Source: Promethearchaeota archaeon (GTDB lineage: Archaea; Asgardarchaeota; Heimdallarchaeia; Hodarchaeales; Hodarchaeaceae). Taken from it: 17,516 bases of DNA. The stretch lies in contig JBHLMN010000036.1 of NCBI GenBank assembly GCA_048938105.1, positions 1 to 17,516 of the forward strand, in the 5' to 3' direction. The notes under the pieces are model-generated. The model made no database searches, was not told the DNA's origin, and saw nothing but the letters and a program-made list of their open reading frames with translations. Below, one piece after another: positions 13,376 through 14,296 of the stretch. How positions within the stretch are numbered: the stretch's first letter is position 1; each line of letters begins with the position of its first letter. Position numbers and translations under genes: made by a program.

Positions 13376-14296
13376 TTATTGCTTTTCTAATTGCTTTATT
13401 TTTTCTCTTAATCTTCGAATTTGATAATTTAGGACTTTATTCTGACTTAACAGGTCAATGACTAACTCTTTGAGTTTTGTTATTTCTCGTTCTTCATGTG
13501 TTGTTAGATCTATCGCAGTTGAGATTGTAGATCGTAAGTCTTCCAGTAATTCATCAAAAATATCTTGAGGATAATCAACGTTATTCTCTTTTTGAACATT
13601 CCAATTATACACCCACTCATCTAGGAATGCTTCCACATAACTGCGGAAAAGACTCTCATTGAGGTGAGGAAAATCAACTGGAAAAAGAAGATGTAAGCTT
13701 GTCATTCTACCAATTTTAGCGATCCGACTATCTTTCGATTCAGGAGCTGGTTGGAGGAAATTGTAAGTCAAATGGATCATATCTTCCCGATTGGGTACGT
13801 TTAATGGTTCTTTAAATCCACTTGGATAATCTACCATTCGTCCCATTGATGTGATAGTCTGTCCTTGTACCGCTAGTAACAAAGCATTTTCTGTTAATAG
13901 TGCACCACTGTTGTAAGCTACTTTGGGGCCTTCAATATCATCAAATACGGATAAGACTAATCCTCGAAGATACTCTCGCTGTAATTTTCGTATTTTAATC
14001 CAAGATTGAACTTTTGCCGCGACTTCTGTAACATCTGTAAGTTCATCAGTCATAAAAATATACAGATCATTACGAAATTTTTGATAGTGAAGCCTAGCAA
14101 AGGAGGCTGGTAATTCGCGAGTGAAAAGAGGAGTATTTTTTTCGGTTTCAATTGCTGGATCACGAAAAATCTCTGCTATCAAAGTATCTTCCTCTGATTT
14201 TGTTAAAATAACTGTTTTTGTTAATTTCTTATCGAAAATATATAATCCTTGATAATTTAACAGCCAAAAACGGTAATAATCACTTGGCATTGTCAT
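13376..14296 (-). CDS. longin-like + uDENN-like domain protein with a C-terminal coiled coil
   Basis: N-terminal RFWLLNYQGLYIFDK (longin-like beta-hairpin); central RGLVLSVFDDIEGPKVAY resembling the uDENN F/W-D-xx-x-GP motif; C-terminal heptads ITKLKELVIDLLSQNKVLNYQIRRLREKIKQLEKQ. Confidence 0.65.
   Translation of the reverse strand: MTMPSDYYRFWLLNYQGLYIFDKKLTKTVILTKSEEDTLIAEIFRDPAIETEKNTPLFTRELPASFARLHYQKFRNDLYIFMTDELTDVTEVAAKVQSWIKIRKLQREYLRGLVLSVFDDIEGPKVAYNSGALLTENALLLAVQGQTITSMGRMVDYPSGFKEPLNVPNREDMIHLTYNFLQPAPESKDSRIAKIGRMTSLHLLFPVDFPHLNESLFRSYVEAFLDEWVYNWNVQKENNVDYPQDIFDELLEDLRSTISTAIDLTTHEEREITKLKELVIDLLSQNKVLNYQIRRLREKIKQLEKQ

What the first reader, a model, noticed from the sequence alone, without database searches (positions are those of the whole stretch)
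13376..14296. Prokaryotic tandem longin-uDENN-coiled-coil protein with a C9orf72/NPRL2/folliculin-like motif
GLVLSVFDDIEGPKVAY (about 13915-13965) matches by eye the first hairpin of eukaryotic uDENN longins (from memory: C9orf72 AYWDNILGPRV, NPRL2 SEFHPTLGPKI, FLCN CHFCELHGPR). It is preceded by a shorter, apparently truncated longin-like unit and followed by a leucine-zipper-like coil of about 40 aa, which suggests dimerisation. A possible ancestral DENN-type GTPase regulator, and a likely partner of the upstream receptor given the 45-nt gap.
Basis: partly seen in the sequence, partly recalled or inferred. Interest (0 to 1): 0.72.

Follow-up and report, generated by a model that had tools for sequence, protein, structure and literature searches.

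The report
Folliculin-type tandem longin protein, Asgard
This Asgard archaeal gene encodes a dimer-forming protein whose second domain has the fold and the two hallmark residues of the eukaryotic folliculin/NPRL2 "off-switches" for Rag/Arf GTPases; the class was published in 2025, so this is a distinct variant of a known kind and its activity is untested.

Summary
Confirmed: ORF 13376-14296 (-) encodes a 304-306 aa soluble protein of a Hodarchaeales-type Asgard archaeon.

**Structure.** The AlphaFold model (pLDDT 83) shows a minimal longin-like domain (7-108), a second longin (110-240), and a helical stalk ending in a five-heptad leucine zipper.

**Closest folds.** The second longin's best structural matches are a Lokiarchaeal longin (Z 13.8), Lst4 and folliculin (12.0), C9orf72-SMCR8 (11.2) and NPRL2 (10.8).

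**Conserved residues.** Gly123-Pro124 sits just before strand 2 and Arg191 lies in the beta4-beta5 loop. Both are invariant in 37 relatives.

**Limits.** No sequence profile reaches significance and there is no DENN core. "uDENN" therefore holds only in the folliculin-type-longin sense.

**Function.** In this genome, paralogous GP-longin genes lie beside the four best Rag-like GTPase genes. That supports a GTPase-regulator role, probably GAP. Activity is untested.

**Partner.** The upstream glycoprotein's cytoplasmic tail is itself a SNARE/TRAPP-type longin. The two genes are adjacent in all 8 loci examined, but binding is unproven.

**Novelty.** Asgard GP-motif/arginine-finger longins were published in 2025 (PMC12290439). 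This scan already reported an orthologue in another genome (e1-5455301). I class it as a new variant of a known kind, of moderate interest.

The parts
13376..14296 (-). Whole gene: tandem longin plus leucine-zipper protein (306 aa as the ORF stands; probable true start is Met3 at 14290)
   Evidence: ORF list and translation. 54 homologues were found, all from Hodarchaeales/Heimdall-type Asgard MAGs. Orthologues start at the Met3 equivalent.
13973..14278 (-). Domain 1 (res 7-108): minimal longin/roadblock-like domain, beta-beta-alpha-beta-beta-beta-alpha. It has a Gly-Leu turn rather than Gly-Pro, and no conserved Arg loop.
   Evidence: Model. VIA matches are VAMP7 longin at Z 10.8-11.0, Lokiarchaeal Rag C-terminal domain 10.3, Gse1 10.2 and MP1-p14 10.1. 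No profile relation to domain 2 or to any PDB chain.
13577..13969 (-). Domain 2 (res 110-240): folliculin/NPRL2/SMCR8-class longin
   Evidence: VIA Z scores: 13.8 (8yqg), 12.0 (Lst4 4zy8; FLCN 6nzd_H), 11.2 (7o2w), 10.8 (NPRL2 8fw5_B), against 9.7 for a TRAPP longin. Nearest Atlas clusters by shape carry Folliculin or NPR2 Pfam families.
13925..13930 (-). GP motif, Gly123-Pro124, at the end of the beta1-beta2 turn
   Evidence: Invariant in 37 of 37 sequences. The motif is defined in PMC12290439.
13706..13732 (-). beta4-beta5 loop with signature D189-x-R191-x(4)-G196-R197. Arg191 (13724-13726) is the favoured arginine-finger candidate and Arg197 the alternative.
   Evidence: D189, R191 and G196 are invariant and R197 is at least 90% conserved. 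Weaker paralogues keep D-x-R but lose R197. The loop is bounded by strands 173-182 and 197-206.
13382..13567 (-). Helical stalk (244-266) and five-heptad leucine zipper (269-305), predicted to form a parallel homodimer
   Evidence: Model helices. Heptad table: Leu at d in five heptads, Asn286 at a in 32 of 33 sequences. bZIP/ZapB-type weak Pfam hits.
14342..17494 (-). Upstream, probably co-transcribed gene. It is a type-I surface glycoprotein of 1050 aa with 43 N-x-S/T sequons outside, one TM helix at about res 774-795 (15110-15175), and a cytoplasmic tail of longin (res 826-964, 14603-15019) plus a small alpha/beta end domain.
   Evidence: Translation. Sequons and hydropathy. Tail family alignment with 70% mean column identity. 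Tail model pLDDT 78. VIA matches synbindin 12.3, Sec22 12.1 and sedlin 11.8, with FLCN only 7.9. Adjacent to the longin gene in 8 of 8 loci.
12031..13242 (-). Downstream gelsolin gene. It is a possible but weakly supported member of the module.
   Evidence: Pfam Gelsolin E 2e-22. It is next to the longin gene in 6 of 8 loci, one gene away in L027 and absent in L001. The wider block is collinear too.

Best explanation
The gene encodes a soluble, zipper-dimerised regulator of a small GTPase. A minimal, non-catalytic longin (domain 1) is followed by a folliculin/NPRL2/SMCR8-class longin (domain 2). Domain 2 presents the Gly123-Pro124 turn and an invariant arginine, Arg191 (less likely Arg197), from the beta4-beta5 loop. 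By analogy with FLCN Arg164, NPRL2 Arg78 and SMCR8 Arg147, that arginine would be inserted into the nucleotide pocket of a Rag-like (or Arf-like) GTPase to stimulate GTP hydrolysis. The leucine zipper would make a parallel dimer and so supply the two-longin platform that eukaryotic longin GAPs build from two different subunits. The protein is probably made together with the upstream surface glycoprotein. It may dock on that protein's cytoplasmic non-catalytic longin tail, which would place the activity at the cell membrane. Shown: gene, conservation, fold, motif positions, zipper register, gene adjacency, and the Rag-gene neighbourhood of paralogues. Inferred: GAP chemistry, the identity of the GTPase, dimerisation, and docking on the receptor tail.
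For: - Fold: two longin units plus a coil, pLDDT 83.
- Domain 2's top structural matches all come from longin GAP complexes or from an Asgard longin dimer: Z 13.8, 12.0, 12.0, 11.2, 10.8.
- As an internal control, the neighbour's tail longin ranks SNARE/TRAPP longins first and FLCN at 7.9.
- The nearest Atlas clusters by shape carry Folliculin (23% of members) or NPR2 (100%) families.
- Gly123-Pro124, D189, R191 and G196 are invariant over 37 sequences.
- FLCN Arg164 and NPRL2 Arg78 lie just before a hydrophobic stretch that I take, from memory, to be strand 5. Only their sequence contexts were verified against PDB chains.
- Arg fingers are proven experimentally for SMCR8 and FLCN.
- This genome holds five strong GP-longin genes. 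Its four best Gtr1/RagA-family hits all lie within about 2 kb of two of them, on contigs C52 and C28.
- The zipper has Leu at d in five heptads and Asn at a.
- The receptor and longin genes are adjacent with gaps of 6-58 nt in 8 of 8 loci. One of these (L001) has otherwise different neighbours.
Against: - No sequence profile links the protein to folliculin, NPR2 or C9orf72. Pfam and NCBIfam give only coiled-coil noise, and hhalign to NPRL2 aligns only the hairpin at 7.5% probability.
- The Z margin over other longins is modest (12 against about 9.7).
- No GTPase gene lies next to this gene. The only GTPase-like ORF in the window is 12 kb away and matches Ras weakly.
- Most longin dimers are GEFs or scaffolds, not GAPs (text of PMC10933270).
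- Two conserved arginines compete for the finger role, and neither could be superposed on a solved complex with these tools.
- Gene adjacency sits inside a block that is collinear as far as SerRS-PAC2-CDC48 in most relatives, so it is not strong proof of a functional link. A paralogous receptor has no GP-longin neighbour.
- No activity has been measured for any Asgard longin of this class, as far as the papers I read show.
Confidence: 0.5

Rival explanations
1. It is a non-catalytic platform or exchange factor. The two longins, doubled by the zipper, would bind a small GTPase as Mon1-Ccz1, TRAPP or Ragulator do. They would act as a GEF, a scaffold or a membrane recruiter rather than as a GAP. 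The conserved arginines would serve binding or fold stability.
For: The best Foldseek E-values over the whole chain go to Mon1-Ccz1, Fuzzy-Inturned and BLOC-3 subunits, which are chains of consecutive longins. Domain 1 resembles Rag C-terminal domains and Ragulator/EGO roadblocks. Longin/roadblock dimers act mainly as GEFs (PMC10933270).
Against: Those whole-chain matches have TM 0.18-0.28 and rmsd 16-18 A, so only the domain order is shared. The GP motif is reported as specific to GAP-type longins. Domain 2 ranks FLCN, Lst4 and NPRL2 above TRAPP and Mon1. The Arg191 loop is invariant.
Confidence: 0.25
2. It is a GTPase-independent adaptor. The protein would couple the tail of the surface glycoprotein to the downstream gelsolin and so to actin, or regulate the tail as SNARE longin domains regulate their own proteins. 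No small GTPase would be involved.
For: The gene order receptor, longin protein, gelsolin recurs in 6 of 8 loci. No GTPase gene is in the module. Some longins have GTPase-independent roles.
Against: Gelsolin is missing in L001 and displaced in L027. The intergenic gap to gelsolin is 133-316 nt, against 6-58 nt to the receptor gene. The whole block is collinear, so the order may be inherited rather than selected. Paralogous domain-2 proteins sit beside Rag-like GTPase genes.
Confidence: 0.15
3. It is a tandem PAS-like sensor or a phasin-like coiled-coil protein, as some hits and one database label suggest.
For: Foldseek lists PpsR, HIF-ARNT and phytochrome PAS tandems at E about 4e-4 to 5e-3. 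One JGI record names a homologue 'phasin'.
Against: The PAS matches have TM 0.14-0.20 and rmsd 15-24 A, and none appears among the top 50 VIA rows. The strand order is that of a longin. The phasin label can rest only on the coil, since no Pfam family is matched.
Confidence: 0.03

Closest known systems
[quoted passage not shown]
   Same: Heimdall-group Asgard origin. Longin fold closest to the eukaryotic GAP longins. A Gly-Pro before strand 2 and a conserved Arg nearby. The function is proposed, not measured.
   Different: This protein adds an N-terminal second longin and a C-terminal leucine zipper, and it is paired with a surface glycoprotein that has its own longin tail. I could not check whether this orthogroup is among the paper's 15 proteins, because its Data S1 is not held.
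Folliculin longin domain in FLCN-FNIP2 (yeast Lst7-Lst4), GAP for RagC/D
   Same: Fold match at Z 12.0 to FLCN 6nzd_H and to Lst4 4zy8. GP turn. An Arg shortly ahead of the hydrophobic run taken as strand 5 (FLCN Arg164; sequence context verified). The beta1-beta2 loop is the substrate-specificity loop in FLCN.
   Different: No DENN domain, no FLCN zinc-binding insert and no Pfam Folliculin match. The loop is longer and carries two arginines. The partner longin is in the same chain or in a membrane protein rather than in an FNIP.
NPRL2 of GATOR1 (yeast Npr2), GAP for RagA/B
   Same: Z 10.8 to 8fw5_B and 9.8 to Npr2 8adl_S. The hairpin with Gly20-Pro21 aligns with Gly123-Pro124. Arg78 precedes a hydrophobic run that I take, from memory, to be strand 5 (sequence).
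   Different: Only 24 columns align by profile, at probability 7.5%. No NPR2 Pfam match, none of the later NPRL2 domains, and no NPRL3 or DEPDC5 counterpart identified.
SMCR8-C9orf72 longin pair, ARF GAP
   Same: Z 11.2 to a chain of 7o2w. Both eukaryotic subunits carry a GP motif, as a zipper-made homodimer of domain 2 would.
   Different: No DENN domains and no WDR41. Homodimer against heterodimer is inferred only.
Longin domain of a Lokiarchaeal Roadblock-Longin protein (PDB 8YQG, dimeric)
   Same: Best structural match: Z 13.8, 150 residues aligned, rmsd 3.3 A. It is archaeal and crystallised as a longin dimer.
   Different: 9% identity with no profile match. There the partner domain is a roadblock, here a minimal longin. 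No zipper.
Tri-longin Rab GEF subunits (Mon1, Ccz1, Fuzzy, Inturned, HPS1/4)
   Same: Several longin domains in one chain; lowest Foldseek E-values.
   Different: Two domains, not three. The domain orientations do not superpose (rmsd 16-18 A). Those proteins lack the GP/Arg signature according to PMC12290439.

Membership tests
Folliculin/NPRL2/SMCR8-class (GAP-type) longin domain | Longin fold: beta-beta-alpha-beta-beta-beta-alpha-alpha with no N-terminal helix | tested here: met
   Model elements are E112-119, E123-129, H135-150, short bridges at 160-166, E173-182, E197-206, H215-235 and H244-266. Topology definition from PMC10933270.
Folliculin/NPRL2/SMCR8-class (GAP-type) longin domain | Structure closer to FLCN, NPRL2, SMCR8/C9orf72 and Lst4 than to SNARE, TRAPP or adaptor longins | tested here: met
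   Z scores of 12.0, 12.0, 11.2 and 10.8 against 9.7 and 8.0 for TRAPP longins over the same residues. The Atlas shape search gives Folliculin- and NPR2-bearing clusters. The neighbour's tail shows the opposite ranking. The margin is modest.
Folliculin/NPRL2/SMCR8-class (GAP-type) longin domain | GP motif at the end of the loop before strand 2 | tested here: met
   Gly123-Pro124 is invariant in 37 of 37 sequences and lies at the start of E123-129. It aligns with NPRL2 Gly20-Pro21. Definition.
Folliculin/NPRL2/SMCR8-class (GAP-type) longin domain | Catalytic arginine finger next to the GP motif, pointing at the GTPase nucleotide | tested here: inconclusive
   Arg191 is invariant and Arg197 is at least 90% conserved, both in the beta4-beta5 loop. 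FLCN Arg164 and NPRL2 Arg78 sit shortly ahead of a hydrophobic run that I read as strand 5. No coordinates were available to superpose them or to measure distance to the GP turn.
Folliculin/NPRL2/SMCR8-class (GAP-type) longin domain | Match to the family sequence profiles (Pfam Folliculin PF11704, NPR2 PF06218, and the uDENN or C9orf72 models) | tested here: not met
   No such hit at E up to 1 for this protein or for 30 relatives. hhalign against an NPRL2 profile gives probability 7.5%. A PDB profile search finds nothing. Some Asgard clusters near it carry these families on 19-23% of members.
Folliculin/NPRL2/SMCR8-class (GAP-type) longin domain | GAP activity on a Rag or Arf family GTPase | not testable with these tools
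   Only genomic context is available: paralogues lie beside the genome's best Gtr1/RagA-type genes.
Folliculin/NPRL2/SMCR8-class (GAP-type) longin domain | Acts as a dimer of a catalytic and a partner longin | not testable with these tools
   Three candidate partners exist: domain 1, the receptor tail longin, and a second copy brought by the zipper. No contact information was obtained.
DENN-domain proteins (uDENN, core DENN, dDENN) | A core DENN and a dDENN module after the longin | tested here: not met
   After residue 240 the model has only two long helices. There is no DENN, uDENN or dDENN Pfam hit.
Tri-longin-domain Rab GEF subunits (Mon1/Ccz1 type) | Three consecutive longin domains that superpose as a unit | tested here: not met
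   Only two longin units. Whole-chain Foldseek matches have TM 0.18-0.28 and rmsd 16-18 A.
Roadblock/LC7 (MglB type) | An N-terminal helix preceding strand 1, and a Robl_LC7 profile match | tested here: not met
   Both units begin with a strand. No Robl_LC7 hit. Roadblock structures match domain 1 at Z 9-10, no better than longins do.
Asgard GP-motif longins of PMC12290439 | An Asgard protein with a GAP-longin-like structure, a GP motif and a conserved Arg | tested here: met
   description. Whether this orthogroup is listed in the paper's Data S1 could not be checked.

The most novel reading that the evidence does not exclude
The receptor, the tandem-longin protein and perhaps gelsolin form a plasma-membrane signalling module. 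On this reading, a heavily glycosylated surface protein recruits, through its non-catalytic longin tail, a zipper-dimerised folliculin-type GAP that switches off a Rag-like GTPase and thereby influences actin. That would be an archaeal, cell-surface forerunner of the lysosomal FLCN/GATOR-Rag nutrient-sensing machinery. The catalytic and partner longins would be split between a soluble and a membrane protein.
Probability: 0.15. Interest if true: 0.85.

Novelty: new variant of a known kind. Interest (0 to 1): 0.45.

Why it matters
Folliculin, GATOR1 and C9orf72-SMCR8 are disease-linked switches of lysosomal Rag/Arf signalling, and their origin is part of the question of how the eukaryotic endomembrane system arose. 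The existence of such longins in Heimdall-group archaea is already published.

This locus adds a compact system that can be expressed and tested:
- a 304-aa soluble protein with two clear point-mutation targets (Arg191, Arg197) and a GP turn;
- a defined candidate membrane partner, the 250-aa receptor tail;
- in the same genome, a short list of Rag-like GTPases that sit beside paralogous longins.

If GAP activity were shown, it would be, as far as the papers I read show, the first biochemical evidence that the arginine-finger longin mechanism predates eukaryotes. If activity is absent, the GP/Arg signature has another meaning.

Tried and rejected
- **Pfam and NCBIfam scans** of the protein and of 30 remote relatives gave only coiled-coil noise such as bZIP, ZapB and YabA.
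- **PDB profile searches.** The whole family gave only coiled coils. Domain 2 alone gave nothing. Domain 1 alone gave nothing below E 0.08.
- **hhalign, domain 2 against vertebrate NPRL2:** 24 columns, probability 7.5%. The NPRL2 profile was narrow (vertebrates only), so this is a weak test.
- **hhalign, domain 1 against domain 2:** no relation, so this is not a recent internal duplication.
- **Complex prediction** of residues 1-245 with the receptor tail: no answer, score 0.00, controls not run. This is neither for nor against binding.
- **Sequencing runs:** no RNA holder listed, so co-transcription could not be examined.
- **Papers not available.** The supplement of PMC12290439 with the Asgard sequences is not held, and the Jansen and Hurley review is not held.
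- **Tandem-PAS matches** from Foldseek were rejected for TM 0.14-0.20 and rmsd 15-24 A. The 'phasin' label of one JGI record was rejected as a coiled-coil artefact.
- **Paralogous receptor (P0132).** Neither of its neighbours is related to this family.
- **A remote full-length relative (P0061)** has no receptor or GTPase neighbour.
- **Fused forms.** No form longer than 375 aa appears among the 38 hits of the exhaustive representative search, so no receptor-longin or GTPase-longin fusion of this particular orthogroup was found.
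Full report
**Where the window comes from.** The window is the whole of contig C65 of a 5.85-Mb genome with 65 contigs, 99% complete and 7% contaminated. GC content is about 35%. Homologues of the target gene come only from MAGs labelled Hodarchaeales, Heimdallarchaeota and similar Asgard names. The neighbouring gelsolin gene (Pfam E 2e-22) and 68 small-GTPase matches in the genome fit an Asgard archaeon.

**Check of the observation.** The ORF 13376-14296 (-) translates to 306 residues. Most orthologues begin at the equivalent of Met3, so the gene probably starts at 14290. 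The quoted hairpin is residues 112-128 (13913-13963). Conservation is high:
- 54 homologues share 50-89% identity.
- In 33 aligned orthologues the invariant residues include Gly112, Phe118, Asp119, Gly123, Pro164, Ile192, Gly196 and Arg197; Arg191 is conserved in at least 90%.
- An exhaustive search of 1.8 billion representatives found 38 relatives. Some share the whole architecture at 26-31% identity. Others have only the second domain, in proteins of 158-375 aa.
- Across these remote relatives the invariant columns shrink to Gly112, Gly123, Pro124, Pro164, Asp189, Arg191 and Gly196. Asp120 and Arg197 are at or above 90%.

The hairpin noticed by eye is therefore one of two signature elements of a real family.

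**Fold.** AlphaFold2 with the 33-sequence alignment gave pLDDT 83.3 and pTM 0.74.
- Residues 7-108 run strand, strand, helix, three strands, helix.
- Residues 112-235 repeat that order, and two more helices follow (244-266 and 269-305).
- Neither unit has a helix before its first strand. By the definition in PMC10933270, that is the longin rather than the roadblock arrangement.
- Domain 1 lacks the last longin helix, so it is minimal rather than truncated in its sheet.

**Structural matches.** VIA-align against 48,161 PDB representatives separates the two domains.
- Domain 2 (about 103-266) matches, in order: the dimeric longin of a Lokiarchaeal Roadblock-Longin protein (8yqg, Z 13.8, 150 residues, rmsd 3.3), the Lst4 longin (Z 12.0), folliculin 6nzd_H (12.0), a chain of C9orf72-SMCR8 (11.2), NPRL2 8fw5_B (10.8), 6ulg_N (10.3) and yeast Npr2 8adl_S (9.8). 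The chain identities for folliculin, NPRL2 and Npr2 were confirmed. TRAPP longins follow at 9.7 and 8.0.
- Domain 1 (1-108) matches VAMP7 longins, a Lokiarchaeal Rag C-terminal domain, Gse1 and MP1-p14 at Z about 10. This means only that it is a generic longin/roadblock-like domain.
- The ESM Atlas shape search agrees for domain 2. Its nearest clusters are a Heimdall cluster with Pfam Folliculin on 23% of members, eukaryotic NPR2 clusters, Asgard GTPase-longin fusions, and DENND10/Avl9.

**Motif positions.** PMC12290439 defines a GP motif at the end of the loop before strand 2. It reports the motif in FLCN, NPRL2, SMCR8 and C9orf72 but not in FNIP2, NPRL3 or other longins, and finds it together with an arginine finger in Heimdall-group longins. 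In this protein Gly123-Pro124 opens strand 123-129.

- NPRL2 1-78 is identical to 6ces_N, with Gly20-Pro21 and Arg78.
- A folliculin segment is identical to 6ulg_L 138-189, which puts Arg164 in the segment K-D-S-L-A-R-G-F-Q-R.

Both fingers sit shortly before a hydrophobic run that I take to be strand 5. That placement rests on my own knowledge of these structures. Here, the loop between strands 173-182 and 197-206 carries the signature D189-x-R191-x(4)-G196-R197.

Which arginine is the finger is open.
- Arg197 lies immediately before strand 5, as I take NPRL2 Arg78 to do.
- Arg191 is the one that never changes. Weaker paralogues in this genome (C6_365443, C41_120544) keep D-x-R and lose Arg197. 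Another (C56_109344) shortens the spacer.

I favour Arg191.

**Sequence-level membership fails.** There is no Pfam or NCBIfam family and no PDB chain by profile. hhalign against NPRL2 aligns only the hairpin: 24 columns, probability 7.5%, P 0.0046. There is also nothing after residue 240 except helices, so the protein has no DENN core. "uDENN" is acceptable only as the name some databases give to folliculin-type longins.

**The coil.** With Leu275 at position d, the d positions are Leu275, 282, 289, 296 and 303. Three are invariant and the other two are Leu in 28 and 30 of 33 sequences. The a positions are Ile272, Val279, Asn286 (32 of 33), Val/Ile293 and Ile300. A buried Asn at an a position is the classic mark of a parallel two-stranded zipper (established knowledge from GCN4). 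A homodimer is the natural reading. It would bring two copies of domain 2 together, much as 8yqg crystallised as a longin dimer.

**What the family does: genomic evidence.** An HMM of domain 2 finds five strong members in this genome.
- One (C52:101694-102530) lies between two genes with Gtr1/RagA matches (Pfam E 4e-6 and 9e-34).
- Another (C28:61380-62408) is next to one with E 2e-25.
- A genome-wide search with the Gtr1_RagA model puts its four best hits (E 1.5e-37 to 1.8e-32) at exactly these two places.

This ties the domain-2 family to Rag-like GTPases independently of fold similarity. It matches the eukaryotic pairing of FLCN and NPRL2 with Rags. It concerns paralogues, though. The target gene itself has no GTPase neighbour.

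**The neighbours.** The upstream gene (14342-17494, 1050 aa) has 43 N-glycosylation sequons before a single TM helix at about 774-795.
- Its last 250 residues are far more conserved than its ectodomain. Aligned tails have 70% mean column identity, while total lengths range from 592 to 1547 aa.
- The tail model (pLDDT 78) is a juxtamembrane helix, a longin and a small alpha/beta end.
- VIA ranks synbindin (12.3), Sec22 (12.1), sedlin (11.8) and VAMP7 first, with folliculin at 7.9. This is a non-GAP type of longin with a Ser-Gly-Leu turn instead of Gly-Pro.

The pair therefore carries three longins, only one of them with the GP/Arg signature. That recalls the catalytic plus non-catalytic pairs FLCN-FNIP, NPRL2-NPRL3 and SMCR8-C9orf72.

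**Gene order across loci.**
- The order receptor then longin protein holds in 8 of 8 distinct loci, with gaps of 6-58 nt (window, L001, L002/3, L004/5, L026, L027, L028). It also holds by consecutive NCBI locus tags in several MAGs.
- In most of these loci the collinearity runs on through gelsolin, MFS, SerRS and PAC2 to CDC48, so adjacency alone is weak evidence.
- The most useful case is L001, where the surroundings differ and the pair persists while gelsolin is gone.
- Gelsolin follows directly in 6 loci, is one gene away in L027, and is separated by 133-316 nt. I treat its membership as unproven.

**Distribution.** With the orthologue profile, 200 genomes sampled across the phylum gave full-length matches only in the window's own family and genus: strong in 7 of 9 other genomes. 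Matches to domain 2 alone appeared in four other families. The architecture is thus a lineage-specific elaboration, not an ancestral form. Within that sample it was "not found" elsewhere, which is not the same as absent.

**Verdict.** The structural reading (tandem longin, folliculin-type second domain, zipper) is supported. The DENN and "ancestral" parts are not. The GAP mechanism and the receptor partnership are reasonable inferences, which I rate at about 50% and 40%. The class is already in the literature (PMC12290439). The same scan had already followed up an orthologue in another genome with the same conclusion (e1-5455301), and it has followed up related folliculin-type longins many times.

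What is particular here is threefold: the two-longin-plus-zipper chain, the split of GP and non-GP longins between a soluble protein and a receptor tail, and a genome that offers named Rag-like candidates for a direct assay.

Noticed in passing
G000 contig C52:100717-103480 (locus L008, ORFs 515-1513, 1510-2331, 2348-3277): A single-domain GP/Arg longin gene (273 aa) overlaps the end of one Gtr1/RagA-type GTPase-plus-roadblock gene and is followed 17 nt later by a second. This looks like a compact Rag pair plus longin operon.
   Followed up: partly
G000 contig C28:60466-62408 (locus L009): Another GP/Arg longin protein (340 aa, with a winged-helix-like end that weakly hits PCI/Mnd1) lies next to, and on the opposite strand from, the genome's best Gtr1/RagA hit. 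A further Rag-like match lies inside a 730-aa ORF just upstream.
   Followed up: partly
G000 ORFs C52:42079-68649 (8857 aa), C52:37457-42079 (1541 aa), C28:49990-57777 (2596 aa): Very large proteins whose last ~100 residues carry a GP hairpin and a P-E-A-R-G-G segment resembling folliculin's L-A-R-G-F. In these the folliculin-type longin appears to be fused to the giant protein itself, whereas in the window it is a separate gene.
   Followed up: partly
window 424-978 (+): A 184-aa ORF whose only Pfam match is a weak, partial Ras hit (E 0.0026, residues 86-131, below the cut-off). It is a possible degenerate small GTPase, 12 kb from the longin gene.
   Followed up: partly
window 12031-13242 (-): The gelsolin protein (403 aa) has two gelsolin repeats, then a Pro/Thr-rich linker and a C-terminal domain of about 95 aa with no family match.
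   Followed up: no
window 14342-14602 (-), residues about 965-1050 of the upstream protein: After its longin, the receptor tail ends in a small alpha/beta domain. It gave a weak ARID hit and one structural match at Z 7.8 to a domain of TbtB. It looks like a winged helix, but this is unverified.
   Followed up: partly
window 3072-10243 and loci L002, L003, L004, L026, L028: The block CDC48, PAC2, a small conserved ORF of about 103-107 aa, and SerRS keeps its order and orientation next to the receptor-longin-gelsolin genes. This holds across relatives that share only 53-66% identity in the longin protein.
   Followed up: partly
locus L027:8258-8995: In one relative, an unannotated 245-aa gene is inserted between the longin gene and gelsolin.
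   Followed up: no
G000 ORFs C6:365443-366396 (318 aa) and C41:120544-122895 (784 aa): These are divergent members of the domain-2 family at the C-terminal end of longer proteins. They keep the D-x-R segment but not the second arginine.
   Followed up: partly
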